32,000 nt of DNA, from the NCBI RefSeq assembly GCF_030068475.1, contig NZ_JAQOSP010000148.1, forward strand, positions 56,991 to 88,990, read 5' to 3'. This document shows positions 1 through 18,544 of this stretch, one piece after another; position 1 is the stretch's first letter, and each line of letters opens with the position of its first letter. The notes below the pieces were generated by a model that was given only the letters and a program-made list of their open reading frames with translations, was not told the origin of the DNA and did not search any database. The position numbers and the translations under genes are program-made. This DNA comes from Roseofilum acuticapitatum BLCC-M154 (GTDB taxonomy: Bacteria > Cyanobacteriota > Cyanobacteriia > Cyanobacteriales > Desertifilaceae).

Positions 1-1027
1 CAACAATATCCGACTTCAGAGAATACTGAACGATCAAGACATAGAAGACGGACAAAAAGACAACTACAGGAGTAATACTGTACTGACTACTTAACTGTTG
101 AACCGCAGACCAGGTACTAGCAGGGATTTGAAAAGATTTATGGTTACTTTCAAAGTCCGATGATAGCTGCAAATTATCAACGGGTACTGGATATAAAGTC
201 GAAACACCAGTTAGCTGCCGTTGCCAATAATTGAGTCCTTTTTCTAATACCTCGCCCTGCAACCACTGTCGCTGCCAAACCGCATAATCTCCATATTGAA
301 TCTCCAACTGGGCTAAAGGAGATGGCTGTTTCTCCAAAGAGGCATCATATAAAGTTAGCAGTTCCTGAGTTAATAAATTAATCGATAAACCATCACCAAT
401 AATATGATGATACACTAAAATCAAAGCGCCATCTGTATCGCCAAACCGTAGCCATTTCAAATTGCATAATGGAGCTTGAGCTAAATCAAAAGACCGTCGA
501 GATTCTTGGGCAATATTTTCCTCAATCAGATCGGCTATTTCAGATCCGCTTAAATTTGAATGATCTTCAACAACAATACTCACCTCTAGCTTAGGAATAG
601 ATACCTGAACTAAAGCCCCTTCAACTAAAGCAAAACTCGTTCTAAGTATCTCATGGCGATCGATAATTTGCTGCCAACTCTTTTGCAGCACTTGAATATT
701 GATTAAACCTTGAAGACGCACTGCTTGACATAGGTTAAGCGTTGCCTTTTCTGACATTAACTGGGCTACCGACCACAGACGCTCTTGCTGATAGGAGAGA
801 GTAAAGTTTCTATCCCTATGAACAGGTACTAACGGTCTAGAGTTAACATTAATACTACTACTTCTTTGCTGTAACAATTGTAGTAACTCAATCTTATTTT
901 CAGATAAAGTCTGTCTAATTTCTGCTGTTAAGGAACCCTTGGGAGCATTAACTTTGAGTTCATCACCCTCTGCCCAAACTTTAATACCTTGGCTAGAGAT
1001 TTTATATAAAAATTCTTTAATATTCAT
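1..1027 (-). CDS. Non-ribosomal peptide synthetase, 5' part only (N-terminal beta-hairpin/TubC-type docking domain + condensation domain); continues beyond left window edge
   Basis: My own minus-strand translation from the ATG at nt 1027-1025 reads MNIKEFLYKISSQGIKVWAEGDELKVNAPKGSLTAEIRQTLSENKIELLQLLQQRSS..., which resembles a docking domain. Condensation-domain sequence follows, with LSYQQERLW and the catalytic core HHIIGDG (nt 389-409). The frame stays open to nt 1. It is missing from the ORF track, probably because it is edge-truncated. It starts 42 nt after the upstream PKS stop on the same strand. Confidence 0.85.
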   Translation of the reverse strand, partial: MNIKEFLYKISSQGIKVWAEGDELKVNAPKGSLTAEIRQTLSENKIELLQLLQQRSSSINVNSRPLVPVHRDRNFTLSYQQERLWSVAQLMSEKATLNLCQAVRLQGLINIQVLQKSWQQIIDRHEILRTSFALVEGALVQVSIPKLEVSIVVEDHSNLSGSEIADLIEENIAQESRRSFDLAQAPLCNLKWLRFGDTDGALILVYHHIIGDGLSINLLTQELLTLYDASLEKQPSPLAQLEIQYGDYAVWQRQWLQGEVLEKGLNYWQRQLTGVSTLYPVPVDNLQLSSDFESNHKSFQIPASTWSAVQQLSSQYSITPVVVFLSVFYVLIVQYSLKSDIV

Positions 1028-1069
1028 GACTTAAGCATCCCCCATTTTTGATTCTTTATGATTCTGTTT

Positions 1070-4000
1070 TTATAAAGTTATTTCTTCTCGCTCTTCGTCT
1101 TCATCTATATTTTGAGCCTGCGAAATCGTTAAATCCGTAATTTGTTCGAGCAAAATTTTCTCCCCCACTAAGTTTGCTATTTGAACAATACTAATGCCAT
1201 CAATTATCCTTTCTAGAGGAAGATCGAATTCTAGTTCCCTCAGCAATAAGTTTCGCAATTCAACTGCCATTAATGAATCAACACCCATACTCGTTAAAGA
1301 TTGCTTGACTTCAATTTTAGCAGCAGTCATGCCCAAAAGAGAAGAAGTTTTATTGATCAGATAATTGAGTAATATTTTTTCTCCTTCCTCCGGTGGAGCA
1401 GATTTCAACTCTTCTAGAAGTTGTTGTGTATTTTCAGTTTCTGTTACTGATGAAATGAAAGCTTCCAAATAGGGCATTTTCTGCCCACCTAGTAACTCCC
1501 TTAAAAATTTTGACCAGTTAACGGGGAATACCCCGACTTGGGTTTGAGCGCCAGATAACAATGACTCTAATACTTGCATTCCCTGTTCGGGTTTAATAGG
1601 AACTATCCCAACGGTTTCCATTCGATTCTGATGTTCGCTGGCTAAACGAGCAGCCATGCCTCCTGCTGCCCAAGCCCCCCAGTTGATAGCCAATCCAGGT
1701 AATCCCATACCACGACGATAGTGAGCTACTGCATCCATAAAACCATTGGCAGCCGCATAGTTGCCTTGACCAGAATTCCCCAACATCGAAGCCATTGATG
1801 AGAAACAGACAAAGAAATCTAAGGGTAAATCTTTGGTCAGTTGATGCAAATGCCAAGTCCCTTGCACTTTAGGTTTCATCACTTTGGTGAACTGCTGCCA
1901 ACTGAGGTTTTGCACTAAGCCATCATCCAATACTCCCGCAGCATGAATCACTCCTTTGAGCGGGAACAAGGAAGTCTGTATCTGCTGGAAAATTTGAGCT
2001 ACATCTTTTTCAGTAGAGACATCACCTAACAATACCTTGACTGATGCTCCTGCTGTTTCTAACTCTTCGATAATTTTTTGTGCAGTTTCATTGGGAGATC
2101 TACGTCCAGTTAAAACAATTTGCTTGGCTCCCTTGGATACCATCCATTGGGCGACTTCTAAACCTAAAGCTCCTAACCCTCCTGTAATTAAATAACTTGC
2201 GTCTGGTTTGATTGATTTTTGGTCTTCTCCAGTTTCTGGCAGAGAAACGACTACTTTCCCAATATGCTTACCTTGTTGCATATATCGGAAGGCAGCTTTG
2301 ACTTCTGTACTTGGAAATACTTTATAAGGTAATGCTTTCAGTTTTCCTTGCTCGTACTGCTGGTTCAATGCTTCTGAAAATTCCGTAATTAAACTGGGTT
2401 GTTGTTGGATTGTCACTCCAATATCAAAAGGCAAGTATTCAACATCTGGGCGCTTTTCCATCACCTTTTGTTTATCCCAAATCCCTATTTTGCCAATTTC
2501 TACAAATCTACCTTGGGGAGCTAAAACAGCAAAACTCTTATCAATGAAGTCTCCATTGAGACTATTTAAAACGATATCTACACCTTTTCCCTGAGTAAGA
2601 CTCATCATTTCATCTGCAAACTCTAAAGTACGGGAATTCATAATATGTTTGACACCCATAGACTTGAGAAATTCCCACTTGGGAGGACTTGCTGTAGCGA
2701 ATACTTCTGCTCCTGCTTGGAGAGCAATTTGAACTGCTGCTTGCCCTACACCACCAGCCGCAGCATGAATTAATACTCGCTCTCCTGGCTGAATTTTAGC
2801 CAAGTGTTGTAACCCATAATAAGCTGTGGCAAAAGTCAAGGGTAAAGTGGCTGCTTCCGTAAAGCTCAAATTTTTCGGTTTAGCCATGACTAACTCAGCA
2901 GAAGTAGTAACAAAGCTACTAAAGCCATTGTGAACTATAGCCATCACTTCATCTCCCACCTGCCACTGAGAGACATTTTCTCCGACAGATGCAATACAAC
3001 CTACACATTCTAAGCCAAAGTTAAGTTGAGCTACGTCAGTAACACCTAATACCTGAACATAATAGTCTTTCAGTAAACCCAAGGAGTTGAGTACATCTCG
3101 GAAGTTTAAACCTGCGGCTTTGACTTCAATTTCTACTTCATTGGCTTGTGGAGTCCGGCGCTGCATTACTTGCCAGTTAAGGTTATCTATCAATCCATAT
3201 TCAGACAACTTCAATTCCACCGGTTGACTTTCTAATCCTAATTTTTCTTCTGAGCTAATTTTATGCTTTTGTTGTCGGATTAATCGTGCTACATAACGAA
3301 CTCCCTGACGAATTGCTATTTGGTCTTCATTATTTTGAGAAAATACTTCATCGACCAAACTGGGGAGCATTTCGGCAAAATTAGATTTGGGATCTAAGTC
3401 TATTCGTCCACACTTTAATTCTGGATGTTCTAGGTTAATCACACGCCCTAGTCCCCATAAACTTCCTTGTTGGGGTTGCACTACTTCTGCTGCATCCAAT
3501 ACACCCTGAGTCCCTTGAGTCACTAACCACATTGGTACTGTATGGGTTAATCGAGCTTGAATTAAGGCTTGCACTAAATGTAAAACTGTTGCACAACCAA
3601 GTTGTTGAGCTGTTTGTAAATCTACGGTTCCCGATAAATCAGTTTCATTTAGAGTCCATAAGTGCAAAATGCCCTGAATATCAGAATTATCTTGGAGCAG
3701 TTGAGAGAAGTGTTCGGCAACAGTGGGATTGATTTGATAATGTTGAGCATCTAACTGCTGATACTCGGATTTTTCTGGGGATACCCAAATATATTGCTGT
3801 CCTTTTTGTTGTAAATGTTGTCCGATAGACTCTACCCATTCATCAGTAAGCGCAAATACTAACCATTTACCAGAGGCGTTTTCATTAGATTTTGCGGTTT
3901 CTGTTAAAGATTGAGGTTCCCAGTTGATTTCGTAATACCAATCACTTAAATCTGAATCTAGAGTCATTAGTAATGTTTTGGGATTCGCTTTCCTACCCTC

Positions 4001-7000
4001 AAAACCCTTAACCTCAGCTACTAATTTTCCAGTTTGGTCAAATAATTGTATTTCGGCTTTGAGCAGTTTTTCTTCTGACGATCCTTCTTTTAATCCACGA
4101 GTATAACACCAAAGGAAACTATTCTCAGGGCGTTGATAAAAGGTAAACTTCTCTATACTGAAGGGCACAAAGGTTTCATGTTGGTCACCAGCAAGACTGA
4201 GGTTCAGTGCAGCTACTGACTGGAAACATGAGTCAAGTAAGGCGGGATGTATTTGATACTTTGCTGCATCTAAGATGGTCTCAGGGACTTTCATTTGACA
4301 CAGGATTTCTCCCTCTCCTAACCAGACTTGGTGTATCCATCTAAAACTTTGCCGTAATTGAACTTGTCTATCCCAAAGATTCTGGTAAATTTCTGTGCTT
4401 TCTATTTTTTGAGGACAACGAGATTGAATGACTTCTATTGTTTCTAGAGACTGTTTTTGCGAAGTATTAGTAGGAGCAATTTTTCCGGTAGCATGGACTG
4501 CCCAAGAATCACTATCAGATCTGTCAAAACTAATGACTTGAAATGAATAGTAGCTATTCTGTGGAGTAAGAGCTACCTGAACATTACGCATTCCTTGTTC
4601 GGGAATGGCTAAGGCTTGGGGAAACAGAATATCTTCCAGTTGACATCCGGTTGCAGAAAATGTGAGAGAGGCACTTGCTAACAAGAGAGAAATGTGACTC
4701 GCACCAGGGACGACAACTTTTTCATATATTCGGTGGTCTGCTAAAAAGGGTAAGGCATGGGTGCTAAACTCAGATTCAAAAAAGATATCTTTTGATAACG
4801 GAGATTGAAACTTTCGATCAATTAGGGGATGAAGTTTAGGTATAGAGATGGCTTGAGAATTGCCTGTTTCTACCCAATACCTTTCCCTCTGAAATGGATA
4901 AGTTGGCAAGATGACTTTCTGACGAACATAATCTCGGTCAAACCCTGACCAATCTACTTTAGCGCCCCGTACATACAACTGCCCTAAACTTGAGAGGATC
5001 TGTTGCCATTCATCGACTCCAGGACGTAGGGATGGTAACCAAATGCCGTTATTTTCTGGTAAACATTGACGAGCCATTCCTAACAATATGGGCTTGGGGC
5101 CAATTTCTAGGAATAATTCATATCCTTGCTCATTTAGAGTGTTCATACTCTGGGCAAATTTGACGGGTTGTCGGACATGGTTGACCCAATATTGAGCTGT
5201 AGCTATGTCTGAACCGACTTTTTGACCGGTGATATTTGATATGATGGGTAGTCGAGGCTGACTATAGGTGACTTGTTGAGCTACTGCTTCAAATTCTGCC
5301 AACATTGGCTCCATGAGTGGGGAATGGAAAGCATGGGAGACTTGTAAAGGCTTGGTTTTAATGCCTTGCGATTCTAATTGATTACAGAGGGTTGCGATCG
5401 CCTCACTATACCCGGAAATCACTATACTCTCCGGCCCATTTATGGCTGCAATTGTTACCTGTGAACTATACTCGCCTATAGCTTCTCTGACTTGAGCTTC
5501 TGATGCTAACAAAGACACCATTGCACCACCAGGGGGTAATTGTTGCATTAACCGTCCCCGCATGGCAATTAATTTTAGACCATCTTCTAAACTCAATACT
5601 CCTGCCACAGTTGCTGCTACATATTCCCCCACACTATGACCCATGACTGCATTGGGTTTAATTCCCCAAGATTCCCATAACTGAGCTAGGGCGTATTCTA
5701 GAGCAAATAAAGCTGGTTGGGTATAAGCAGTTTGGTCTAATACACTAGACTTTTGTTCATCTTGAGGGTAGAGAACTTCTAATAGAGGGACTTCTAGATA
5801 AGCTTGTAAAATTTGGTCGCATCGATCTAAAGCTTGACGGAAAGTTGGCACAGTTTCATAGAGTTGCTTTCCCATATTCACATACTGGGAACCTTGACCG
5901 GTGAAGAGGAACGCTATTTTTGGACTTTGGCTACTTCCATCGAGTTGTCCAGAAAATCCTCCTAGGATTTCTTTCTTCGTTTTCCAGTCCACCAGTTTTT
6001 CTGTTAATTCCTTTTGCTCAGAAGCAAGAATTGCTAGTCGATGATTAAAATGCGCTCTACCTGTATTAGCTGTATAACATATATCTGCTAGGGGTAACTC
6101 TGAATGGTTTTCTAAATAGTTTTGATAACGACTAACTAAATTTTCTAAAGCTTGTTCTGTTTTAGCTGAGAGCGTCAAGAGATGAATAGGACGTTTTAAG
6201 TCATCTTCACGGTTGTCTTCTCTTGGTGCTTCTTCTAAAATGATGTGAGCATTAGTGCCACTAATTGCAAAAGAGCTTACTCCTGCCACTCTTTTGTCTG
6301 CTGATGAGAGCCAAGGGGTGAGTTGAGTCGGGACTTTTAAAGGTATATTCTCCCAATCAATATAGGGACTAGGATGAGTAAAATGAAGATTAGGGGTGAT
6401 TTGTTGATGTTGTAGTTGCAAAACGACCTTGATCGCACCAGCAATGCCAGCAGCAGCTTCTAAATGACCGATATTCGTTTTAACTGAAGCGATATGCAAT
6501 GGATTTTGGCGATCGCGTCCCGGCCCAAATACGCTACTTAAAGCTCTCACTTCCATCGGGTCTCCAAGGGAAGTTCCCGTACCATGAGCTTCCACATAAC
6601 TCACTTGAGCCGCTTCTACTTTGGCTGCTTTCAGAGCTTGCTGAATCAGTTTTTCCTGAGCCAGTTTATTCGGTACAGTCAGTCCGCTACTCGGCCCATC
6701 ATGATTAACCGCAGAACCCCGAATGACTGCCTGGATATTGTCCCCATCCTTGAGTGCATCCGATAAACGCTTCAGCACCAGAATGCCACATCCCTCTCCC
6801 CGACCATAACCATCAGCAGCAGCATCAAACGTTTTACACTTGCCATCGGGTGATAGGGCCTTTAATTTTGAGAGTGCAGTGGTCACTTGAGGAGAGAGAA
6901 TGAGTTGAACCCCTCCAGCTAAAGCCAGATTAGATTCACCCTGACGCAGACTCTGACAAGCTTCATGTATAGCAACCAAAGACGATGAACAAGCGGTATC

Positions 7001-7609
7001 TATTGCCATCGATGGGCCTTGCAATCCTAAAAAGTAAGATAACCGACCTGCGGCAAAACAAAACCCATTTCCAGTAGCATCATAAGGGCTAATATTTTCA
7101 ACTTGGTTCAAACCCAAGTTCGCATAATCATTTTGACCAATACCCAGAAATACTCCGGTCTGGGTATTTTCTAATTCCTGGGGATTAATACCCGCTCTTT
7201 CTAAAGCTTCCCAAGTTACTTCTAAAATAAACCGTTGCTGTGGATCGAGGCTGTGTGCTTCTTTGCCAGAGATACCAAAAAATTGCGGATCGAACCGATC
7301 GACCTGCTCCACTAATGCTGCATGACGAATATACATTTTCCCTGGAGCATCGGGGTTGGGGTCGTAGTAAGAATCTATATCCCAACGTTCTAAGGGAATC
7401 TCTCTAACCGAGTCTTTCCCCTGAGACAATAGTTCCCAGAATAGCTCTGGTGTGTTGGCATTGCCTGGAAACCGACAACCGATACCGACGATCGCGATCG
7501 CCTCACTTTTTGAACGCTCCATCATCTCCAACTTAGTTTCAGCTTGCTTTAAAGCTAAAAACATCTGTTTGGATAATGAGAGTTCCTCTTTTTTCGTCGT
7601 CGGTTCCAT
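1070..7609 (-). CDS. Type I modular polyketide synthase, fully reducing module: KS-AT-DH-ER-KR-ACP with N- and C-terminal docking regions
   Basis: 2179-aa ORF. KS: DTACSSS (Cys207, nt 6989-6991), EAHGTGT, TNIGHLE. AT: GHSVGE and VSHAFHS (HAFH, malonyl-type). DH: HPLIDR...LADHRIYEKVVVPGA (about nt 4700-4745) and LLDSCFQ. ER: LIHAAAGGVGQ (about nt 2745-2780). KR: YLITGGLGALG, HAAGVLDDG (LDD, B-type), GNYAAAN. ACP: GVDSLMAVEL (about nt 1265-1290). The tail is acidic: ...EDEEREEITL. Confidence 0.95.
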   Translation of the reverse strand: MEPTTKKEELSLSKQMFLALKQAETKLEMMERSKSEAIAIVGIGCRFPGNANTPELFWELLSQGKDSVREIPLERWDIDSYYDPNPDAPGKMYIRHAALVEQVDRFDPQFFGISGKEAHSLDPQQRFILEVTWEALERAGINPQELENTQTGVFLGIGQNDYANLGLNQVENISPYDATGNGFCFAAGRLSYFLGLQGPSMAIDTACSSSLVAIHEACQSLRQGESNLALAGGVQLILSPQVTTALSKLKALSPDGKCKTFDAAADGYGRGEGCGILVLKRLSDALKDGDNIQAVIRGSAVNHDGPSSGLTVPNKLAQEKLIQQALKAAKVEAAQVSYVEAHGTGTSLGDPMEVRALSSVFGPGRDRQNPLHIASVKTNIGHLEAAAGIAGAIKVVLQLQHQQITPNLHFTHPSPYIDWENIPLKVPTQLTPWLSSADKRVAGVSSFAISGTNAHIILEEAPREDNREDDLKRPIHLLTLSAKTEQALENLVSRYQNYLENHSELPLADICYTANTGRAHFNHRLAILASEQKELTEKLVDWKTKKEILGGFSGQLDGSSQSPKIAFLFTGQGSQYVNMGKQLYETVPTFRQALDRCDQILQAYLEVPLLEVLYPQDEQKSSVLDQTAYTQPALFALEYALAQLWESWGIKPNAVMGHSVGEYVAATVAGVLSLEDGLKLIAMRGRLMQQLPPGGAMVSLLASEAQVREAIGEYSSQVTIAAINGPESIVISGYSEAIATLCNQLESQGIKTKPLQVSHAFHSPLMEPMLAEFEAVAQQVTYSQPRLPIISNITGQKVGSDIATAQYWVNHVRQPVKFAQSMNTLNEQGYELFLEIGPKPILLGMARQCLPENNGIWLPSLRPGVDEWQQILSSLGQLYVRGAKVDWSGFDRDYVRQKVILPTYPFQRERYWVETGNSQAISIPKLHPLIDRKFQSPLSKDIFFESEFSTHALPFLADHRIYEKVVVPGASHISLLLASASLTFSATGCQLEDILFPQALAIPEQGMRNVQVALTPQNSYYSFQVISFDRSDSDSWAVHATGKIAPTNTSQKQSLETIEVIQSRCPQKIESTEIYQNLWDRQVQLRQSFRWIHQVWLGEGEILCQMKVPETILDAAKYQIHPALLDSCFQSVAALNLSLAGDQHETFVPFSIEKFTFYQRPENSFLWCYTRGLKEGSSEEKLLKAEIQLFDQTGKLVAEVKGFEGRKANPKTLLMTLDSDLSDWYYEINWEPQSLTETAKSNENASGKWLVFALTDEWVESIGQHLQQKGQQYIWVSPEKSEYQQLDAQHYQINPTVAEHFSQLLQDNSDIQGILHLWTLNETDLSGTVDLQTAQQLGCATVLHLVQALIQARLTHTVPMWLVTQGTQGVLDAAEVVQPQQGSLWGLGRVINLEHPELKCGRIDLDPKSNFAEMLPSLVDEVFSQNNEDQIAIRQGVRYVARLIRQQKHKISSEEKLGLESQPVELKLSEYGLIDNLNWQVMQRRTPQANEVEIEVKAAGLNFRDVLNSLGLLKDYYVQVLGVTDVAQLNFGLECVGCIASVGENVSQWQVGDEVMAIVHNGFSSFVTTSAELVMAKPKNLSFTEAATLPLTFATAYYGLQHLAKIQPGERVLIHAAAGGVGQAAVQIALQAGAEVFATASPPKWEFLKSMGVKHIMNSRTLEFADEMMSLTQGKGVDIVLNSLNGDFIDKSFAVLAPQGRFVEIGKIGIWDKQKVMEKRPDVEYLPFDIGVTIQQQPSLITEFSEALNQQYEQGKLKALPYKVFPSTEVKAAFRYMQQGKHIGKVVVSLPETGEDQKSIKPDASYLITGGLGALGLEVAQWMVSKGAKQIVLTGRRSPNETAQKIIEELETAGASVKVLLGDVSTEKDVAQIFQQIQTSLFPLKGVIHAAGVLDDGLVQNLSWQQFTKVMKPKVQGTWHLHQLTKDLPLDFFVCFSSMASMLGNSGQGNYAAANGFMDAVAHYRRGMGLPGLAINWGAWAAGGMAARLASEHQNRMETVGIVPIKPEQGMQVLESLLSGAQTQVGVFPVNWSKFLRELLGGQKMPYLEAFISSVTETENTQQLLEELKSAPPEEGEKILLNYLINKTSSLLGMTAAKIEVKQSLTSMGVDSLMAVELRNLLLRELEFDLPLERIIDGISIVQIANLVGEKILLEQITDLTISQAQNIDEDEEREEITL

Positions 7610-7641
7610 AAAATCTTAGCCTTCACTTATATTTTTTGACT

Positions 7642-10600: not shown

Positions 10601-12579
10601 GCCACAGTTGCTGCTACATATTCTCCTACACTGTGACCCATGACGATAGTTGGTTTAATTCCCCAAGATTCCCATAACTTGAATAAAGCATATTCAATCG
10701 CAAACAGAGCAGGTTGTGTATAACCGGTTTCGTCTAACCCATTAGAACTTGACTGTTGTCCCTCTTTAGGGTATATCACCTCTAATAGAGGCACTTCTAG
10801 ATAGGGTTGTAAAATTTGGTCGCATCGTTCTAAAGCTTGACGGAAAGTTGGCTGACTTTCATACAATTGCTTACCCATATTCACATACTGAGAACCTTGG
10901 CCGGTGAATAGGAAAGCTATTTTAGAACTTGCGCTACCGCGATCGAACTCTCCACAAGATAGGCCAACAACTTCCTTGCCTCTTTTCCAATCCAGTAGCT
11001 TTTCTGCTAATTCTTTTGGCTCAGAAGCAACCACTGCTAGTCGATGCTGAAAATGTTGTCTTCCTGTATTAGCCGTGTAACAGATATCTGCTACTACCAA
11101 ATCTGGATAGGTTTCTAAATGCTTGTGATAACGATCGACTAAATCTTCTAAAGCTTTTTCTGTTTTAGCTGAAAGAGTCAATAGATGAACTGAACGTTCT
11201 AGATCATCTTTAGTGTTGCCTTCTTTTGGGACTTCTTCGAGAACGATATGAGCATTCGTGCCACCCATACCAAAGGAACTCACCCCCGCTATTCTGGGTT
11301 TTCCTTCATCAGAAGACCAAGGCATTAGTGAAGTCGGAATTTTGATGGGTAATCTATCCCAATCTACATGAGGATTCGGTTGTTTCAAGTGCAAATGAGC
11401 AGGAATTTCTTGGTGCTGAAGGGCTAAAATCACCTTGATCAAAGATGATACACCTGCTGCTGCTTCCAAATGCCCCAAATTGGTCTTGACCGATCCCACA
11501 ATTAAAGGAGAATCTACTGGACGTTTTTTGCCATATACTTCTGCCAGAGCTTCTATCTCAATGGGGTCTCCTAAAGACGTTCCTGTACCGTGAGCCTCTA
11601 AATAGCTAATTTGATGGGGTTCTAATTTGGCATTGGCTAATGCTTGTTGAATGACCTTTTTCTGGGCCATTCTATTAGGAACGGTCATCCCACTACTGGG
11701 GCCATCATGGTTAACAGCAGAACCTCGAATAACGGCGGAAATGAGATCCCCATCATTGACTGCATCAGACAAGCGTTTCAAAACTAGGACACCACATCCT
11801 TCTCCCTGACCATAACCATTGGCAGACGCATCAAAAGTCTTGCAACGACCATCAGGAGATAGTGCCTTCAGTTGGCAACGACCAATTGTGCTGAAGGGCG
11901 ATAAGATTAAATTAACTCCACCCACTAAGGCTAAGTTGGATTCTCCCGATCGCAAACTCTGACAGGCTAAATGGGCAGCAACTAAAGAACTTGAACACGC
12001 TGTATCGACCTGTATATTAGACCCTTGCAGACCCAAGAGATGAGAAATACGACCGACACCAATACTTCTATTGCTTCCAAGAGTCGGGTAACTTTTGGCT
12101 TCGTTTAGAATGACGGAAGAATAGTCATCTGTGGAGATGCCCATGAAGACACTGGTCTGACTATTCTTCAGGTTTGTCCAGGTTTGTCCCGAATTTTCTA
12201 GGGCTTCCCAGGTTACCTCTAACAGTAATCTGTACTGAGGATCTAAACTGACGGCTTCTCTTGGAGCGATACCAAAAAATAAGGGGTCAAACTGGTCAAC
12301 TTGCTCAATAAAGCCCCCTTGTTTGGTGTAAGCTTTCCCTGGAACTTCTGGATCGGGATCGTAATAAGCACTGACATCCCAGCGATCGCCAGGAACTGAG
12401 GTAATGGCATCTATGCCATCATGCAACAAACTCCAGTATTTTGAGGGGTCATTCGCTCCTCCAGGAAATCGACAGGCCATTCCTACAATGGCGATCGGTT
12501 CGGTTTTGGCTTTATTGACGGCTTCAAGCTTACCCCGCATGTCCTTCAAAGTTTGAAGCACTTCTTTGGATATGCTCAT
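7642..12579 (-). CDS. Type I modular polyketide synthase, beta-ketoreducing module: KS-AT-KR-ACP with docking regions
   Basis: 1645-aa ORF. N-terminal coiled-coil-like docking region: MSISKEVLQTLKDMRGKLEAVNKAK. KS: DTACSSS (Cys195, nt 11995-11997), EAHGTGT, TNLGHLE. AT: GHSVGE and VSHAFHS. KR: YLITGGLGALG (about nt 8900-8935), HAAGVLDDG (B-type), GNYAAAN. ACP: GMDSLMAVEL (about nt 7915-7935). The C-terminal docking tail is helical and acidic. There is no DH or ER. Confidence 0.95.
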   Translation of the reverse strand: MSISKEVLQTLKDMRGKLEAVNKAKTEPIAIVGMACRFPGGANDPSKYWSLLHDGIDAITSVPGDRWDVSAYYDPDPEVPGKAYTKQGGFIEQVDQFDPLFFGIAPREAVSLDPQYRLLLEVTWEALENSGQTWTNLKNSQTSVFMGISTDDYSSVILNEAKSYPTLGSNRSIGVGRISHLLGLQGSNIQVDTACSSSLVAAHLACQSLRSGESNLALVGGVNLILSPFSTIGRCQLKALSPDGRCKTFDASANGYGQGEGCGVLVLKRLSDAVNDGDLISAVIRGSAVNHDGPSSGMTVPNRMAQKKVIQQALANAKLEPHQISYLEAHGTGTSLGDPIEIEALAEVYGKKRPVDSPLIVGSVKTNLGHLEAAAGVSSLIKVILALQHQEIPAHLHLKQPNPHVDWDRLPIKIPTSLMPWSSDEGKPRIAGVSSFGMGGTNAHIVLEEVPKEGNTKDDLERSVHLLTLSAKTEKALEDLVDRYHKHLETYPDLVVADICYTANTGRQHFQHRLAVVASEPKELAEKLLDWKRGKEVVGLSCGEFDRGSASSKIAFLFTGQGSQYVNMGKQLYESQPTFRQALERCDQILQPYLEVPLLEVIYPKEGQQSSSNGLDETGYTQPALFAIEYALFKLWESWGIKPTIVMGHSVGEYVAATVAGVFSLEDGLKLIAMRGRLMQQLPSGGEMVAVMSSESVVTNAIGDKSSKVTIAAINGPESMVISGESEAIATICTRLESQGVKTQPLKVSHAFHSPLMEPMLAEFAAVAQEVTYRQPKIKFISNVTGQKAGNEVTQAEYWVNHIRQPVQFAQSIKTLHEQGNELFLEIGPKPVLLGMGSRCLPEDVGVWLPSLRPGVEEWQQMLSSLGQLYVKGITVNWSGFDQDYTRQKVALPTYPFQRERCWVEVNQPKEPQVSSKIIETPIVKLLSEGKTTDLAQQLEKAVNFSPEQLKLLPELLEVLAKQHQEQLAAVTIKNWFYEVQWKPLDRAGSNTKMQPSHWLVFADTTGVAEKFAQKLQQQGHQYSLVYRAESYQKQAAGKYQLNPSIPEEFDQLYQEIQEAGQLPLSRFIHLWSLDTPESKDLTLDALQETQLWGCGSVMHLVQTLLKNASTSQLWLVTRGSQSVLSQEKNIPGLAASPLWGLGRAMSIEHPQLWGGLVDLDPQATAADEIEMLWQLLGNEPEEDNLALRGDKTYVARLANQEPPEFPQPLSLSSEGSYLITGGLGALGLHTAQGLVEKGAKNIILTGRRPPSEKVQESIQQLEQAGCQVNVLLGDVSRKEEIAQILEQIQTSMPSLKGIIHAAGVLDDGTIQQMNWERFGQVMSPKVIGTWNLHQLTQNLPLDFFVCFSSMVSLIGSPGQGNYAAANAFMDALVGYRRSIGLSGLAINWGAWASEGMAARLAVEHQNRIQSSGISEMSPKEGMYALELLLGNQIADPPPVPLRKGEVRECCPVPGQVGVIAVNWSVLAEHWSGLQKSSLLRELLQKEDLAEHDALKQKAKVEILAKLEAASREERQEILIEHIRGQVVQVLGLSSSQLPEVNVGFMEMGMDSLMAVELKNRLQNQLGTHLPETVAMEYPTIAKLSLYVEELMEWKPTENGILSDGLNPRNPSEIGAESLPDLEDISEEDFEALAAQQLEKLKNML
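8215..8277. repeat. About 63-nt G5/C5 hairpin-repeat segment lying in frame inside the module-2 PKS gene (KR-ACP linker)
   Basis: The plus strand reads ...CTTCCCCCTTTCTAAGGGGGACTGGAGGGGGATC.... It holds a perfect hairpin CCCCCTT(8244-8250)-TCT-AAGGGGG(8254-8260). It encodes ADPPPVPLRKGEVRECCPVPG, which has no counterpart at the aligned position of the other two modules. Confidence 0.6.
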
Positions 12580-12580
12580 T

Positions 12581-15500
12581 TTAGTCTTCCTCCAGTAAAG
12601 CTTGAATTTCTTCTAACTCCGAAGCGATCGCGCTATCAAGTTCTCCTTCAAATTCCATTTCTATCTTCTGGGGAGGCGTTATATTTTCACTCTCTTCAAC
12701 ACTCCATTCTTCCTCTTTCTCTTCTGAGAAAATTTCTGCAAGTAAGTAGTCAGCTAAGTCTTTAATATTCGACTTTTCAAACAAGGTTGCTGTGCTGATC
12801 GAGAAACTAAAAGTAGCCATCAACTTATTTCTTAACTCAACCGCCATCAAGGAATCCATACCCATCCTGAAAAATCCTAATTCGGGATCGGGAAGTTTGG
12901 ATTTCGATAATCCGATAATTTTAGCGACATCATTTTGCAGATGCTCGATGAGGATTTCGAGCCGTTCGCTTTCTGGAGCTTGATAAAGTTGTTGTAAGAA
13001 TTCCGATCTCTGTTCAGAAGCCCCTTCTCCACTTCTTGCTTCTGAATCCAGTGAAATTTCTGCCAGAAATGACCGTTTACCTCCTAGTTCATAAAGTTCC
13101 TTAAATACATCCCAGTTGATATCTGCGACTACGGTTTGAGGGCGATCGCTTGCTAATACCTTCTCCAAAGCGGCGATCGCTTTTTCTGGTTCTAGAGGTT
13201 TTACGCCCATTTGGTTTAACCAATTCATGGCTTCTCCTGCTGCCATTCCTCCCCCTGACCAAGGCCCCCAATTGATACTATAGGTTGGTAATCCCAGAGA
13301 TTGCCGATAATCCGTTAATCCATCCAGAAAATGGTTAGCTGCTGCATAATGAGCTTGGCCTTTAGAACCCCAGACTGATGCAATAGAAGAGAAATTAACA
13401 AAAAAGTCTAGGTCTAGCTTCTCTGTTAACTGATGTAGCACCCATCCTCCGACTACTTTGGGACGCAATATGGCTTCGAGTTGAGAAAATTCCAACTCCT
13501 GAATCAGATCAGATCCGATGACTCCTGCTGCATGAATAACTCCTTTGAGAGGTGGCATAGTTTCTTGCACTTGCTTAAATGCCTTCTCCATATCTTGTTG
13601 CACAGATACATCGGCTTGAGTTACAACAACCTCTACGCCTTGCTTGCGTAAACTCTCAATTCTCAATTGTGCTTGATCTGATGGCTGAGAGCGACTGATT
13701 AATACTAGATGTTGACATCCCTTCTCTACCAACCATTGAGCTATATTCAGTCCTAATGCTCCTGTTCCCCCAGTAATTAAATAACTTCCTTCCTTACTCA
13801 AGGACACAGGGTTAGATTCTGCTAAGAGTTGTCTTTCTAAACGAGCTACATAGATTTCTCCATTACGAATAGCCAGTCGATCTTCTTCTGCTTCATCTTC
13901 TAGAACTTGTAGCAAGATTTCTGCTTCGCTTGTGGAAGATTGGCGATCTAAGTCTATTAATCCTCCCCATAATTGAGGATGTTCCAAAGATAAGACTTTT
14001 CCAAGTCCCCAGAGTGGGGTTTGGGCTATTGCAACTTCTTCTACAGGCAACACAGACTGGGAAGCTTGAGTGATTAACCACAGTTGAGGTGAGGATGATT
14101 TCCAGTATTTTTCCATCGCTTGCACCAGATGCAAGACGCTACCACAACTATTCTTTTGTGCTGACTCTAAAGCTGGCTGAGTGAGTTGTTGTGTCGGTGT
14201 AGTTTCCAGGCTCCACAAGTGAATGATTCTCGGATTTTCCCCCACAATTGCCTTTGCATCTTGGCAAAAACGCTCAAAATCGGCTGGATTAGATGGGTTT
14301 AGCTCCCAACTTGCTGTTTCCTTTTGCTGGTAGGTTTCACCCATAAATACAGTGAAACAGCGATCGTCTCTTTTTTCTAACCGGTTGGTCAGTTTTTCGC
14401 CTACCCCATCTCTATCGCTGAATATTATCCAAGTTTTTGGCTGTAGTGTTTTTTTATACTCTTGCCTAGGCGCTGCTTTTTGCCATTCCACCCCATAGAA
14501 CAGTTTTTGTAATGAAACATCAGAGTAATGTAGGGGTTTCTGTAGAATAGCTTGATTCCACTTGTAAATTTCATCTACTGACAACTGCTCTTGCTTTTGT
14601 GCTGTCATTATCACATAACTGACCAGCTTCTTACGCAACATCTTGTAGAGATTGTCATAAGATTGCAGCCCTACTCTGGCATTTTCATTTAAATTGCTTT
14701 TCTTACAAACATAGTTAAGATTCTCTGGGAAATTAGGATCGTCTAAACCATTAGCAATCTCGTTACTAATATCTACATAACGGATGATTTTGAGATGACT
14801 TTCTGATAATAAATCTAGCCATTCTTGTTGAGTCGCCAGATAAGATGAATGAGCATCATAATCAATGTTAAATGAGGCATTAGATATAAAGTCTGATATC
14901 ACGAAATCACCCCGATCGTTTAAGTGATTTTTGATATTTAAAAAGAGTTCTTTTTTCTTCTTGATATGACAAATGACTTCAAATCCGTAGATCAAATCGT
15001 AACGATCTGGAAACTCATCCTGAGAACTATCTCCATTAACGATTTTTACCCGTTCTTCTAAATTTAGTTGACTAATTTTTTTGTTTCCTAATTCTACTTG
15101 CCCTTCTGATATGGTATAACCACAAAGCTCTAAGTGATGATACTTCTGACCTAAAGCAATTAAATCAGTTCCATGACCACAACCAATATCTAGAACTTTA
15201 CGACAAGCAGAAAAATCGACTTTCTGCCAAGCTATATTTCTAATCTCTTGCTGGGCAGTTGATGCTAATTTTTGATATTTTTCTTGTATTTTTAATTGGG
15301 CGAAAAATAGAACCCATGAAAATCCTTTGATAATCCCTGGCAAAGGAATGTAGTTCAAAATTGCTTCTTCATCTGTCAACGAAGCTAACTCATCATAAAA
15401 GTCACCCACTATATCGCCCCGATCTTGCAGATACTTTTGATACCGAGCCTTCAAAATATCTAACAACTTCGGTAATAGTTTTTCTTCATCTTCGGTTAAT

Positions 15501-18292
15501 TCTTCCGATAACTTGAGTTCTCGAATTAATTCCTCTGGATCGCCTAGATCTAGTGGATTTGAACTATGATGGGTAGTATTTCGGTCTTGATTTTTAGTGG
15601 TTTCTACCCAATATCTTTCTCGCTGAAATGGATAAGTTGGCAATTCTACTTTCTGATTAGTATAATCGCGGCCAAATCCTGACCAATCTACATTGAAACC
15701 TTTTACATATAATTGCCCTAAGCTTAATAGCATTTGCTGCCATTCTTCTACTCCAGGACGTAATGACGGCAACCATACTCCGACATCTTCTGATAAACAT
15801 TGACGAGCCATGCCTAACAATATGGGTTTGGGGCCAATTTCTAAGAAAACGTTATACCCTTCTTCATGGAGAGTTTTCATACTCTGGGCAAATTTCACGG
15901 GTTGTCGAACATGATTGACCCAATATTTAGCAGTAGTCATGTCTGAACTCACTTTTTCCCCTGTAACATTTGATATGATGGGTATTTGAGGTTGACTATA
16001 GGTAACTTCCTGAGCGACTGCTTCAAACTCTGCTAACATTGGCTCCATCAACGGGGAATGAAAAGCATGGGAGACCTGTAGATGCTTGGTTTTAACGCCC
16101 ATTGCTTCTAATTTACCGCAAATGGTGGCGATCGCCCCACTCTCCCCGGAAATCACTGTACTCTCTGTCCCATTTATAGCTGCTATTGTTACTTGGTTAC
16201 TGTACTCTGCGATCGCCTCCCTCACTTGAGATTCTGATGCCATCACTGCCACCATCTCTCCACCAGGGGGCAACTCTTGCATCAACCGTCCCCGCATGGC
16301 GATTAATTTCAAACCATCTTCTAAGCTAAAAACGCCTGCGACTGTTGCTGCCACATATTCTCCCACACTATGACCCATCACCAAATTAGGTTTAATCCCC
16401 CAAGATTCCCATAACTTAGCTAGGGCATATTCTACAGAAAACAAAGCCGGTTGAGTATAAGCGGTTTGGTCTAATACAGAAGAACTTGACTGAGAATAGA
16501 TAACTTCTAATAGAGGGACTTCTAGATGTTTTTTCAGAATTTCATGGCATTGGTCTAGACTTTTCCTAAATGTGGGTTGAGTCTCATATAACTGTCGCCC
16601 CATATCTATATATTGAGAACCTTGCCCAGTAAACAGAAAGGCAATCTCCTTCTCCTTACTTTCTGCTTTTCCTCTTACCACTTCATTTGTCTCATCACCC
16701 TTCAGAAAATCTCCTAACTTTTGCTGTAGATCGCTGTTGGACTCGGCTACTATTGCCAGTCTTTCTGCAAAAGGTGTCCGTCCTGTATTGGCGCTGAAGC
16801 AGATATTTTGTAGCGATGCTTCCGCTTTGGATTCTAAATAAGTTTGATAGTTTTCTGCTAGTTCCCTTAGTGCTTGCTCTGTCTGCGCTGAGAGGGTTAA
16901 AATTTGTTGCGGACGCTCTAGCACTGGTTCATTGTTAACTTTTTCTAGGGGTTCTTCTAATACAATATGAGCATTAACACCACCGATACCAAAAGAACTT
17001 AAACCAGCACGTCTAGGAATCTCTTCTCCTGATTCATTGCTTAATCTTTCCCAGTCTTGCGTTTCCTCTAGCATATAGAACGGAGCATCTTTCAGACTAA
17101 TGCGTGGATTTAATTCCTTGAAGTTGACAATTTTGGGCAGCTTTTTGTGCTTCATTGCTAATAAGACTTTGATTAATCCCGCAATTCCTGCTGCTCCTTC
17201 TAAATGCCCGATATTGCTTTTTACTGCCCCTATGCCACAGTAGGCTTTCTCCGTCTTTTCGACTCCATACTGTTGATAAAGTTGTCTGTAGGCTCTTTTT
17301 AATGCATTAATTTCTATTGGGTCTCCCAATGGTGTGCCCGTTCCATGAGATTCGATGTAAGAGACTGTATCTGGAGAAATATTAGCGTTAGTATAGGCTG
17401 AACGAATGACTTGAGCTTGGGCGTAGACATTGGGAGAGGTTATCGTTCTCGCTCTACCTCCGTGATTAATGGCACTCCCTTGAATGACACCATAAATGCG
17501 ATCGCCATCTTCTATTGCTTTTGCCAGAGGCTTTAATAAAACAACTCCTGCTCCTTCTCCCCTCACATAACCATCAGCATCACTACTAAATGTTCTACAT
17601 TGTCCTGTTGGCGATAACATACCCAGTTGACTCATCTGGATGTAGGTTGTTGAGGTGAATAACACGCTGATCCCACCGACTAACGCCATCTCACATTCTG
17701 ATTCTTTGAGGGATTTAACCGCGTAATGAAGAGCGACTAGTGAGCTTGAACAAGCTGTATCTATTGGAATACTTGGGCCGTGTAGATTAAAAAATGAAGA
17801 GATGCGATTGGCAAGCATAGAAGTCCAAGTTCCTGTGCCACTATGACCTTCTACATTCTCTTGATTTTGGTTCATTAATAGAATAGAGTCATAGCTACAT
17901 GCCCCGATAAAAACACCTATATCTTTTCCTAAAACTTGAGAGAGGGAGTAACCTGCATCTTCGACACAAGACCAGCTCAATTCCAACAGGATTCTTTGTT
18001 GAGGGTCTATGTTTTTTGCTTCTCTGGGGGAAATATCGAAAAACTGAGCATCGAATTGGTCTATATCTTCTATCAACCCTAACCATTTACTGATAGTTTT
18101 GTGGGGAGTTTGGGGATTAGGCGAGTAATAGTCTTTGATGTTCCACCGGTTTTCAGGAATTTCTGTAATGCTATTGATTCCTTGTTCGAGGTTTTGCCAG
18201 AATTGATGGTAGTCTTTCGCGCCCGGAAACCGACAAGCCATCCCAATAATTGCGATGTCAGCTACATCCTTCTTTTCAATGGAATATTGCAT
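12581..18292 (-). CDS. Type I modular polyketide synthase, first module in operon: KS-AT-MT-KR-ACP
   Basis: 1903-aa ORF. KS: DTACSSS (Cys181, nt 17750-17752), ESHGTGT, SNIGHLE. AT: GHSVGE and VSHAFHS. Methyltransferase SAM motif I: VLDIGCGHGTD (about nt 15171-15200). KR: YLITGGTGALG (about nt 13760-13795), no LDD motif, SVWGSKGQAHYAAAN. ACP: GMDSLMAVEL (about nt 12841-12865). The C-terminal docking tail is acidic. Its stop codon is 1 nt from the next gene's start codon. Confidence 0.95.
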   Translation of the reverse strand: MQYSIEKKDVADIAIIGMACRFPGAKDYHQFWQNLEQGINSITEIPENRWNIKDYYSPNPQTPHKTISKWLGLIEDIDQFDAQFFDISPREAKNIDPQQRILLELSWSCVEDAGYSLSQVLGKDIGVFIGACSYDSILLMNQNQENVEGHSGTGTWTSMLANRISSFFNLHGPSIPIDTACSSSLVALHYAVKSLKESECEMALVGGISVLFTSTTYIQMSQLGMLSPTGQCRTFSSDADGYVRGEGAGVVLLKPLAKAIEDGDRIYGVIQGSAINHGGRARTITSPNVYAQAQVIRSAYTNANISPDTVSYIESHGTGTPLGDPIEINALKRAYRQLYQQYGVEKTEKAYCGIGAVKSNIGHLEGAAGIAGLIKVLLAMKHKKLPKIVNFKELNPRISLKDAPFYMLEETQDWERLSNESGEEIPRRAGLSSFGIGGVNAHIVLEEPLEKVNNEPVLERPQQILTLSAQTEQALRELAENYQTYLESKAEASLQNICFSANTGRTPFAERLAIVAESNSDLQQKLGDFLKGDETNEVVRGKAESKEKEIAFLFTGQGSQYIDMGRQLYETQPTFRKSLDQCHEILKKHLEVPLLEVIYSQSSSSVLDQTAYTQPALFSVEYALAKLWESWGIKPNLVMGHSVGEYVAATVAGVFSLEDGLKLIAMRGRLMQELPPGGEMVAVMASESQVREAIAEYSNQVTIAAINGTESTVISGESGAIATICGKLEAMGVKTKHLQVSHAFHSPLMEPMLAEFEAVAQEVTYSQPQIPIISNVTGEKVSSDMTTAKYWVNHVRQPVKFAQSMKTLHEEGYNVFLEIGPKPILLGMARQCLSEDVGVWLPSLRPGVEEWQQMLLSLGQLYVKGFNVDWSGFGRDYTNQKVELPTYPFQRERYWVETTKNQDRNTTHHSSNPLDLGDPEELIRELKLSEELTEDEEKLLPKLLDILKARYQKYLQDRGDIVGDFYDELASLTDEEAILNYIPLPGIIKGFSWVLFFAQLKIQEKYQKLASTAQQEIRNIAWQKVDFSACRKVLDIGCGHGTDLIALGQKYHHLELCGYTISEGQVELGNKKISQLNLEERVKIVNGDSSQDEFPDRYDLIYGFEVICHIKKKKELFLNIKNHLNDRGDFVISDFISNASFNIDYDAHSSYLATQQEWLDLLSESHLKIIRYVDISNEIANGLDDPNFPENLNYVCKKSNLNENARVGLQSYDNLYKMLRKKLVSYVIMTAQKQEQLSVDEIYKWNQAILQKPLHYSDVSLQKLFYGVEWQKAAPRQEYKKTLQPKTWIIFSDRDGVGEKLTNRLEKRDDRCFTVFMGETYQQKETASWELNPSNPADFERFCQDAKAIVGENPRIIHLWSLETTPTQQLTQPALESAQKNSCGSVLHLVQAMEKYWKSSSPQLWLITQASQSVLPVEEVAIAQTPLWGLGKVLSLEHPQLWGGLIDLDRQSSTSEAEILLQVLEDEAEEDRLAIRNGEIYVARLERQLLAESNPVSLSKEGSYLITGGTGALGLNIAQWLVEKGCQHLVLISRSQPSDQAQLRIESLRKQGVEVVVTQADVSVQQDMEKAFKQVQETMPPLKGVIHAAGVIGSDLIQELEFSQLEAILRPKVVGGWVLHQLTEKLDLDFFVNFSSIASVWGSKGQAHYAAANHFLDGLTDYRQSLGLPTYSINWGPWSGGGMAAGEAMNWLNQMGVKPLEPEKAIAALEKVLASDRPQTVVADINWDVFKELYELGGKRSFLAEISLDSEARSGEGASEQRSEFLQQLYQAPESERLEILIEHLQNDVAKIIGLSKSKLPDPELGFFRMGMDSLMAVELRNKLMATFSFSISTATLFEKSNIKDLADYLLAEIFSEEKEEEWSVEESENITPPQKIEMEFEGELDSAIASELEEIQALLEED

Positions 18293-18544
18293 AAACCTAA
18301 CGGAATCCCTGATGCAAGGAAAAAACGTCTTGAACCTTTTAACTTGAAGTCAGTGTACCACAAGAACTTGATTCCAACCAAGTCTTAACAAATTTTAACA
18401 ATTGATTGTCAAGAAGTATTGACAGACACTAGAGATTACTGAATTTCAAAGCTAACATGGAATATTCAGAATTAACTTTAGGGCCCTAAAGTTGCTGAAA
18501 ATCCCTTAATAATTCTGTGTCCTTTTGAGCTAGAGGAAACCATT

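What the first reader, a model, noticed from the sequence alone, without database searches (positions are those of the whole stretch)
1..18544. Uncharacterised-looking hybrid PKS-NRPS assembly line (three collinear cis-AT modules feeding a condensation domain)
Four co-directional, tightly spaced genes have gaps of 1, 32 and 42 nt. They encode KS-AT-MT-KR-ACP, KS-AT-KR-ACP, KS-AT-DH-ER-KR-ACP, then an NRPS starting with a docking domain and a C domain. Every KS keeps the Cys-His-His triad, and all three ATs carry GHSVGE plus HAFH (the malonyl-CoA fingerprint). Matching C-terminal acidic helices and N-terminal coiled-coil docking regions support the collinear order. Collinear logic predicts a 5,7-dihydroxy-6-methyl-acyl intermediate, or 5-hydroxy-7-methoxy if the MT is an O-MT. 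That intermediate would be passed to the NRPS as an N-acyl group, giving a lipopeptide-like product. I cannot match this module order to a characterised cyanobacterial pathway from memory (microcystin, curacin, jamaicamide, hectochlorin, hapalosin, cryptophycin, nostophycin and others differ). The thioesterase, A domains and any tailoring genes lie outside the window.
Basis: partly seen in the sequence, partly recalled or inferred. Interest (0 to 1): 0.7.

Follow-up and report, generated by a model that had tools for sequence, protein, structure and literature searches.

The report
Lyngbic-acid-type PKS cassette, malyngamide-like cluster
These genes are the intact front end of a hybrid polyketide/peptide gene cluster from the marine cyanobacterium Roseofilum; it most likely builds the methoxy-fatty-acid tail known from malyngamides, so it is a new copy of a known kind of pathway rather than an unknown one.

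Summary
On the minus strand lie three intact cis-AT PKS genes: KS-AT-MT-KR-ACP, KS-AT-KR-ACP and KS-AT-DH-ER-KR-ACP. They are followed by a docking domain plus C domain. The gaps are 1, 32 and 42 nt and the catalytic motifs are intact.

The window comes from Roseofilum sp. BLCC_M154: the first PKS is 100% identical to an NCBI protein of that strain. The same three-gene cassette occurs at 76-95% identity in other Roseofilum genomes, two metagenomes and an Okeania MAG.

- The MT is a beta-hydroxyl O-methyltransferase (StiE/StiD-like).
- Module 2 has no DH.
- The module-3 DH is about 75% identical to CurJ DH, an enzyme reported to make gamma,delta as well as alpha,beta double bonds.
- KR1 looks A-type.

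Together these fit a 7-methoxy-4E-enoyl ("lyngbic acid") chain built on a fatty-acyl starter loaded in trans. Roseofilum is reported to produce lyngbic acid, and its genomes were already annotated with malyngamide-type clusters.

Downstream, outside the window, come tandem ACPs and an HMG-CoA-synthase beta-branching cassette, as expected for malyngamides. Two features do not fit. No LipM-like loader lies upstream, and the "NRPS" module carries an oxalyl-CoA-synthetase-like ligase instead of a canonical A domain.

Verdict: real, a new member of a known kind, of modest interest.

The parts
12581..18292 (-). PKS1, 1903 aa: KS (17120-18259), AT (15695-16639), O-methyltransferase (about 14552-15394), A-type-like KR (13256-13789), ACP (12743-12940). 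Only 11 residues precede the KS, so there is no loading module and no N-terminal docking domain.
   Evidence: Pfam. Motifs. The MT region's best solved-structure matches are the StiE and StiD O-MTs (6ecx at 6e-62, 6ecu at 1e-54), with no PKS C-MT among the hits. 100% identical to a type I PKS of Roseofilum sp. BLCC_M154 (P0001).
7642..12579 (-). PKS2, 1645 aa: N-terminal docking helix, KS (11386-12501), AT (9958-10914), B-type KR with LDD (8401-8934), ACP (7816-8013). No DH: only about 100 aa of linker lie between the AT and the structural KR subdomain.
   Evidence: Pfam. Sequence inspection. Orthologues at 81-91% identity in L080, L081, L083, L084 and L001.
1070..7609 (-). PKS3, 2179 aa: N-terminal docking helix, KS (6380-7504), AT (4961-5911), CurJ-like DH (3986-4831), ER (2246-3145), B-type KR (1667-2200), ACP (1169-1363), acidic C-terminal tail ...DEDEEREEITL.
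   Evidence: Pfam. The DH matches CurJ DH (3kg8) at 6e-132, about 75% identical, including the same LADHxxYExVVVPGASH variant. Orthologues at 85-95% identity.
1..1027 (-). First 342 aa of gene 4: TubC_N-type beta-hairpin docking domain (866-1021) and the N-terminal two thirds of a C domain (2-805, HHIIGDG). The full product in this genome is P0123 (2680 aa): dock, C, degenerate Asub remnant, oxalyl-CoA-synthetase-like ligase, Asub piece, T, KS, AT, ACP, ACP.
   Evidence: Pfam. The P0123 sequence begins with the window's translation. Ligase identity.
18293..18544 (.). 252-nt divergent intergenic region between PKS1 and argD. It is the presumed promoter region and the upstream edge of the cluster.
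   Evidence: ORF map. argD assignment. The same argD-PKS1 junction occurs in R. reptotaenium AO1-A (L080). The consensus sigma-70 scan found nothing.

Best explanation
This is the upstream 18 kb of a malyngamide-like hybrid PKS/NRPS gene cluster of Roseofilum sp. BLCC_M154. The three PKS proteins form a lipid-tail cassette that most likely makes a lyngbic-acid-type chain, a 7-methoxy-4E-enoyl thioester. The chain would be C14 if the starter is octanoate.

Proposed steps:
1. (Inferred) A medium-chain fatty acyl group is placed directly on KS1 by a trans-acting enzyme. PKS1 has no loading domain, ACP or docking domain ahead of its KS.
2. Module 1 extends with malonate. Its A-type-like KR gives the L-3-hydroxyl, and the O-MT methylates it. 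The domains are shown; the chemistry is inferred.
3. Module 2 extends with malonate and its B-type KR leaves a D-3-hydroxyl. There is no DH in this module.
4. Module 3 extends and reduces. Its CurJ-like DH performs the normal 2,3-dehydration. By the vinylogous route described for CurJ and CurH DH, it also removes the 5-OH left by module 2. The ER then saturates C2-C3, leaving the 4E double bond (inferred).
5. The ACP3 tail docks on the beta-hairpin docking domain of gene 4. The C domain of gene 4 joins the acyl chain to a unit loaded on the T domain.
6. The KS-AT-ACP-ACP half of the same protein extends the product once. An HMG-CoA synthase/ECH1/ECH2 cassette then beta-branches it. This step is seen in the 93-94% identical JGI contig and the 92% identical BLCC-M91 contig, not in the window.

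The final product is not known.
For: - Source and integrity.
- O-MT rather than C-MT.
- No DH in module 2 and LDD-type KR2 and KR3, versus a KR1 without LDD.
- DH3 is about 75% identical to CurJ DH. [quoted passage not shown] 2016 is listed).
- No loader upstream of PKS1 in four independent genomes (window, L080, L081, L083).
- The published malyngamide model has octanoyl transferred directly to the first KS (PMC10088813; PMC10180397).
- The cassette is conserved at 76-95% identity in Roseofilum, two metagenomes and Okeania.
- Roseofilum is reported to produce lyngbic acid (PMC5394123). All nine Roseofilum MAGs studied carry clusters that antiSMASH calls malyngamide C acetate or malyngamide I (PMC9967302).
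- Downstream tandem ACPs plus HCS, ECH1 and ECH2-KS.
- KR1 predicted as L-hydroxyl agrees with the usual 7S configuration. The title of a reference listed calls 7R 'the first'. The mapping from KR type to 7S is my own derivation.
Against: - No LipM/LplA-like octanoyltransferase gene lies in the window or within 6-10 kb upstream of PKS1 in any relative.
- I could not align against the reference Mgc/Mgi proteins. The primary paper is not held and the domain order of mgc is from my memory.
- The unit-loading domain of gene 4 is an oxalyl-CoA-synthetase-like ligase, not a glycine-type A domain. The head group may therefore differ from malyngamides.
- The far end of the cluster was not retrievable.
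- No expression or metabolite data exist for this strain.
- The starter length cannot be read from sequence.
Confidence: 0.65

Rival explanations
1. Strictly collinear reading. Each module acts only on its own beta-carbon, so the chain delivered to the C domain is a saturated 5-hydroxy-7-methoxy acyl group.
For: Module 2 has a KR and no DH. The collinearity rule is the default expectation.
Against: DH3 is about 75% identical to CurJ DH, which removes a delta-hydroxyl left by a DH-less upstream module. The genus produces lyngbic acid, which carries the 4E-olefin and no 5-OH. KR2 is B-type, the stereochemistry that feeds E-selective dehydration.
Confidence: 0.15
2. The cluster shares only the lipid cassette with malyngamides and makes a different conjugate. 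The ligase in gene 4 would load a non-amino acid, for example a small hydroxy acid, and the C domain would form an ester rather than an amide.
For: - The ligase's best solved relatives are oxalyl-CoA synthetases (6qjz and 5ie0, about 1e-71). Its NCBIfam match is the FadD7 family.
- The C domain is 66% identical to the C domain of a Caldora module with the order C, A-remnant, ligase, KR, T, TE. That layout is described for 2-keto/hydroxy-acid units (PMC13643306).
- The dock-C-remnant-ligase-T module recurs at 79-82% ligase identity behind unrelated upstream PKS modules in Symploca, Dapis and another MAG.
Against: The substrate was not tested. The KS-AT-ACP-ACP plus HCS cassette that follows is exactly what the glycine-derived vinyl branch of malyngamides needs. 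antiSMASH calls Roseofilum clusters malyngamide-like. I do not know whether the reference mgc module has the same ligase.
Confidence: 0.25
3. The MT is a C-methyltransferase, giving a 6-methyl-5,7-dihydroxy chain.
For: Generic SAM-MT Pfam hits do not distinguish C-MT from O-MT.
Against: Strong full-length matches to the StiE and StiD O-MT structures, with no PKS C-MT structure among 53 hits. PKS1 lacks PF18558, which appears on other MT-containing PKSs and not on PKS1's own orthologues; reading it as a C-MT marker is my inference.
Confidence: 0.02
4. This is the looekeyolide (lkl) cluster, the other hybrid PKS/NRPS cluster known from Roseofilum.
For: Same genus, and the lkl cluster is also hybrid T1PKS/NRPS.
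Against: Looekeyolides have a highly substituted, heavily oxygenated 16-carbon polyketide followed by hydroxymethionine and Leu/Phe. Here only three malonyl-specific modules precede the C domain, the first module O-methylates, and a beta-branching cassette follows.
Confidence: 0.02

Closest known systems
Malyngamide clusters mgc/mgi of Okeania hirsuta (Moss et al. 2018, ACS Chem Biol 13:3385)
   Same: - A first PKS whose KS is primed in trans, with no loading module.
- Three malonyl modules whose reductive and methylating domains fit 7-methoxytetradec-4E-enoic acid.
- Hand-off to a C-domain module fused to KS-AT and tandem ACPs.
- An HMG-CoA-synthase beta-branching cassette.
- 80% identity of PKS1 to an Okeania PKS.
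- Roseofilum clusters are labelled malyngamide by antiSMASH.
   Different: - No LipM-like loader gene lies next to PKS1.
- The unit-loading domain is an oxalyl-CoA-synthetase-like ligase flanked by A-domain remnants.
- Terminal modules (KR0, ring formation) were not seen.
Curacin A synthase modules CurI/CurJ and CurL (Moorena producens)
   Same: - A DH-less KS-AT-KR-ACP module followed by a module whose DH is about 75% identical to CurJ DH.
- An O-MT module with CurL's architecture, KS-AT-OMT-KR-ACP.
- The same class of N- and C-terminal docking helices.
   Different: - The order and number of modules differ.
- The window shows no GNAT loading module or cyclopropane chemistry.
- Module 3 here has an ER and no C-MT.
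- It is a relative by module ancestry, not the same pathway.
Stigmatellin PKS O-methyltransferase domains StiD and StiE (PDB 6ecu, 6ecx)
   Same: An embedded beta-hydroxyl O-MT between the AT and KR, with full-length alignment and a conserved SAM motif.
   Different: A myxobacterial pathway with no other relation to this cluster.
C-Ax-KAL-KR-T keto-acid modules (Dol15D-M2, PyrG; PMC13643306)
   Same: Gene 4 has a C domain, then a degenerate A-domain remnant, then an inserted ANL-superfamily ligase, then T.
   Different: The ligase is oxalyl-CoA-synthetase-like, only 24% identical to the ligase of the Caldora module that has the C, A-remnant, ligase, KR, T layout. There is no KR between the ligase and T.

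Membership tests
Modular cis-AT type I PKS | KS with Cys-His-His, in-module AT with GHSxG, and an ACP serine in each module | tested here: met
Modular cis-AT type I PKS | Malonyl-CoA specificity fingerprint (GHSVGE plus HAFH) | tested here: met
   All three ATs carry it.
Malyngamide-type (mgc/mgi) cluster | Lipid cassette whose domains fit lyngbic acid: O-MT+KR, then KR only, then DH+ER+KR, with no loading module | tested here: met
   The assertion that mgc has exactly this order rests on my memory of Moss et al. 2018, which is not held.
Malyngamide-type (mgc/mgi) cluster | LipM/LplA-family octanoyltransferase (MgcA) encoded in the cluster | tested here: inconclusive
   None in the window. None within 6-10 kb upstream of PKS1 in L080, L081 or L083. 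The downstream end of the cluster could not be fetched.
Malyngamide-type (mgc/mgi) cluster | Amino-acid (glycine) NRPS module fused to KS-AT and tandem ACPs | tested here: inconclusive
   C, T, KS, AT and two ACPs are present in P0123. The activating domain, however, is an oxalyl-CoA-synthetase-like ligase. Its substrate is unknown.
Malyngamide-type (mgc/mgi) cluster | HMG-CoA synthase beta-branching cassette after the hybrid module | tested here: met
   HCS, ECH1 and ECH2-KS are present in L001 and L084, which are 92-95% identical across PKS3 and the start of gene 4. This was not seen for BLCC_M154 itself.
Malyngamide-type (mgc/mgi) cluster | Inactive penultimate KR (KR0) and cyclohexanone-forming terminus | not testable with these tools
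   The downstream sequence was unreachable.
Malyngamide-type (mgc/mgi) cluster | High sequence identity to the reference Mgc/Mgi proteins | not testable with these tools
   Indirect evidence only: 80% identity to an Okeania sp. SIO3I5 PKS and the antiSMASH labels in PMC9967302.
PKS beta-hydroxyl O-methyltransferase domains (StiD/StiE type) | Full-length similarity to the solved O-MT domains, and position between AT and KR | tested here: met
   6ecx at 6e-62 over 281 residues.
Diene-forming (vinylogous) DH domains, CurJ/CurH type | Close homology to CurJ DH, the His/Asp dyad, and a preceding module that lacks a DH | tested here: met
   The activity itself was not tested.
Looekeyolide (lkl) cluster | Enough modules and branching for a substituted C16 chain before the NRPS modules | tested here: not met
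   Only three malonyl modules precede the C domain (compared).

The most novel reading that the evidence does not exclude
The acyl chain is handed to a non-canonical module (C, dead A-domain remnant, oxalyl-CoA-synthetase-like ligase, T). This module would load something other than a proteinogenic amino acid. The product would then be a new lyngbic-acid conjugate rather than a malyngamide, and the module would represent a second, KR-less class of 'ligase-inserted' NRPS modules. The module is widespread in marine filamentous cyanobacteria (Roseofilum, Symploca, Dapis).
Probability: 0.2. Interest if true: 0.55.

Novelty: new member of a known kind. Interest (0 to 1): 0.27.

Why it matters
Roseofilum is the engineer of black band disease of corals. 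Lyngbic acid from this genus has been proposed to interfere with Vibrio quorum sensing, and malyngamide C shows the same activity in marine bacteria. Pinning the lyngbic-acid tail to a specific, conserved three-gene cassette gives a genetic handle on that chemistry in a cultured, non-coral Roseofilum strain. The result also gives a clear sequence-level case of a DH-less module paired with a CurJ-like DH. In addition, it flags a recurrent ligase-bearing NRPS module whose substrate is unknown. None of this overturns current understanding.

Tried and rejected
- Exact-sequence look-ups of the window's own proteins (PKS3, P0001, P0123) found no contig on record. The BLCC_M154 contig could therefore not be extended leftwards.
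- The third protein search, aimed at recovering the full 2580-aa downstream PKS for further walking, returned only other KS-AT proteins.
- The single metagenome scan did not contain the JGI contig (best hit 70%). The cluster end and any LipM-like gene remain unseen.
- The primary malyngamide paper (PMC6470004), the CurJ paper (PMC5590676) and Meyer et al. 2016 (PMC5029210) are not held.
- The plasmid collection gave only about 71% partial PKS hits, so this is not a known plasmid cluster.
- tRNA, Rfam and promoter/terminator scans found nothing.
- Rejected readings: the MT as a C-MT; the looekeyolide cluster; the upstream class III aminotransferase as a pathway enzyme, because it is argD and housekeeping genes follow it.

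Full report
**What is there.**

All four genes lie on the minus strand:
- PKS1: 18292..12581, 1903 aa.
- PKS2: 12579..7642, 1645 aa.
- PKS3: 7609..1070, 2179 aa.
- A fourth ORF starts at 1027 and runs off the left end of the window.

The gaps are 1, 32 and 42 nt.

Pfam gives KS-AT-MT-KR-ACP, KS-AT-KR-ACP and KS-AT-DH-ER-KR-ACP. For the fourth gene it gives a TubC_N docking domain followed by a Condensation domain containing HHIIGDG.

A motif script confirmed the following:
- DTACSS, HGTGT and NxGH in every KS.
- GHSVGE plus HAFH in every AT.
- YAAAN in every KR.
- The phosphopantetheine serine in every ACP.
- The ER nucleotide motif.
- A DH with its His and Asp (DSCFQ).

**Cluster edge.**

The cluster stops at about 18.3 kb. 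The divergent neighbour is an argD-type transaminase (TIGR00707, 538 bits). The rest of the window is housekeeping or mobile-looking: MiaE, a Dcm-type methylase, a class A PBP, a GNAT, HicB, GIY-YIG, Uma2, fumarase and a SAM methyltransferase. The PKS region has 38-44% G+C, against 48-52% for parts of the flank.

**Where it comes from.**

PKS1 is 100% identical to a 'type I polyketide synthase' of Roseofilum sp. BLCC_M154, on a contig of 88,991 bp (P0001). The full product of gene 4 in that genome is P0123, whose N-terminus is the window's translation.

The three-PKS cassette recurs with the same architecture and order in:
- Roseofilum halophilum BLCC-M91 (PKS1 88%; PKS2 87% and PKS3 92%).
- R. 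reptotaenium AO1-A (85-88%).
- A JGI metagenome contig (91-95%).
- An ENA metagenome contig (76-85%).
- Okeania sp. SIO3I5 (80%).

**What the cassette makes.**

Four sequence facts go beyond the domain list.

1. The MT is a beta-hydroxyl O-methyltransferase. Its best solved relatives, over the full domain, are the stigmatellin O-MTs StiE and StiD (6e-62 and 1e-54). No PKS C-MT appears among the 53 hits.
2. Module 2 has no DH. Only about 100 residues separate the AT from the structural KR subdomain.
3. The DH of module 3 is about 75% identical to CurJ DH (3kg8, 6e-132). It shares even the unusual LADHxxYExVVVPGASH form of the His motif. CurJ follows the DH-less module CurI. [quoted passage not shown] 2016 listed).
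4. KR1 lacks the LDD motif and so looks A-type, whereas KR2 and KR3 carry LDD and so look B-type.

Read together, these give the following route:
- Module 1 makes an L-3-hydroxyl and O-methylates it.
- Module 2 leaves a D-3-hydroxyl.
- Module 3 reduces its own keto group and dehydrates. It then removes the delta-hydroxyl vinylogously to give a 2,4-diene.
- The ER saturates C2-C3.

The result is a 7-methoxy-4E-enoyl chain, which is lyngbic acid if the starter is octanoate. The predicted L-configuration at the methoxy carbon corresponds, by my own priority analysis, to the usual 7S. A reference title seen calls 7R lyngbic acid 'the first'. These chemical steps are inferred, not shown.

**Priming.**

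PKS1 begins 11 residues before its KS, and the ORF cannot be extended upstream. No FAAL, ACP, GNAT or other loader lies upstream in the window or in three relatives from other genomes.

This matches the published model for malyngamides, in which an intact octanoate is transferred straight to the first KS by the LipM/LplA-family enzyme MgcA (PMC10088813; PMC10180397). However, I found no LipM-like gene in any stretch I could read. This defining feature therefore remains open.

**Link to known chemistry and annotation.**

Roseofilum is reported to produce lyngbic acid (PMC5394123). A comparison of nine Roseofilum genomes found, in every one, hybrid T1PKS/NRPS clusters that antiSMASH annotates as malyngamide C acetate or malyngamide I (PMC9967302).

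The other Roseofilum hybrid cluster, for the looekeyolides, does not fit. It needs a heavily substituted C16 chain before its NRPS modules.

**Downstream context (outside the window).**

P0123 continues as C, a degenerate A-subdomain-like remnant, an ANL ligase, a second Asub-like piece with an A9/A10 motif, T, KS, AT, ACP, ACP.

In the 92-95% identical contigs L001 and L084 the hybrid gene is followed by:
- an HMG-CoA synthase,
- ECH1,
- an ECH2-KS-AT-DH-ACP protein,
- and a 2580-aa PKS.

A unit-loading module fused to KS-AT and tandem ACPs plus an HCS cassette is what the glycine-derived, beta-branched part of malyngamides requires (my knowledge of the structures).

The surprise is the ligase. 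Its best solved relatives are oxalyl-CoA synthetases (6qjz and 5ie0, about 1e-71) and its NCBIfam match is the FadD7 family. It is not an NRPS A domain.

Only three proteins in the 5.8-billion-protein collection share the whole hybrid architecture. However, the dock-C-remnant-ligase-T module itself recurs, with 79-82% ligase identity, in Symploca sp. SIO1C2, Dapis sp. BLCC M172 and another cyanobacterial MAG. In each case a KS follows it, and different PKS modules precede it.

The layout resembles the recently described C-Ax-KAL-KR-T keto-acid modules (PMC13643306). A Caldora relative has that same domain layout, and its C domain is 66% identical to the one here. The ligase here belongs to another ANL branch, only 24% identical to the Caldora ligase, and there is no KR. 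I cannot tell what it loads.

**Limits.**

- I could not fetch the rest of the BLCC_M154 contig or the far end of any relative's cluster.
- I could not align against the reference Mgc proteins, and I could not read the primary malyngamide paper. The exact mgc domain order is from my memory.
- There are no expression or metabolite data for this strain.

**Verdict.**

This is a real, intact biosynthetic locus. It is best read as the lyngbic-acid-type lipid cassette and hand-off point of a malyngamide-like cluster. That makes it a new member of a known kind in a genus where such clusters and the lipid itself were already reported. Interest is modest. The only feature with some novelty potential is the ligase-bearing module, almost all of which lies outside the window.

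Noticed in passing
P0123 residues about 521-1345 (gene 4, beyond window position 1); L002 9977-20560; L004 10001-14368; L007 10001-14332: The 'NRPS' module is C, a degenerate A-subdomain remnant, an oxalyl-CoA-synthetase-like ANL ligase, an Asub piece, then T. It has no canonical A domain and no KR. The same module (79-82% ligase identity) occurs in Symploca, Dapis and another MAG. In each case a KS follows it.
   Followed up: partly
L001 10001-18184 (BLCC-M91 orthologue of gene 4), compared with P0123 and P0122: The BLCC-M91 protein carries in-frame Arg/Gly/Asp-rich low-complexity insertions inside and just before the ligase. One example is a 29-residue GEGEGHGDTETRRRGDAENG... block after M154 residue 950. 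These insertions are absent from the M154 and JGI versions.
   Followed up: partly
window 1-18000 versus 18000-25000: The PKS region has 38-44% G+C, whereas adjacent housekeeping genes reach 48-52%. This is compatible with horizontal acquisition. argD sits at the same junction in R. reptotaenium AO1-A (L080).
   Followed up: partly
L084 18181-28121: Downstream order is HCS, ECH1, ECH2-KS-AT-DH-ACP (a DH with no KR in that module), then a 2580-aa KS-AT-DH... PKS. No free-standing donor ACP or decarboxylating KS was seen next to the HCS.
   Followed up: partly
L083 5092-6291; L007 1896-3089: A family-1 glycosyltransferase gene lies directly upstream of the first PKS gene in Okeania sp. SIO3I5 and in the P01_H01_bin.35 MAG. 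Roseofilum has argD at that position instead.
   Followed up: no
window 20472-22169: A Dcm-type C5 cytosine DNA methyltransferase (20472-21743, minus strand) lies next to two overlapping 120-aa ORFs with no family match. This could be an orphan methylase or the remnant of a restriction-modification system.
   Followed up: no
window 25349-28848: A run of small genes with overlapping stops and starts (25349-25627, 25624-26130, and the HicB-like 26130-26471). It is followed by a 539-aa GIY-YIG-domain protein and a Uma2-family endonuclease on the other strand. This looks like a small toxin-antitoxin or mobile-element-like patch.
   Followed up: no
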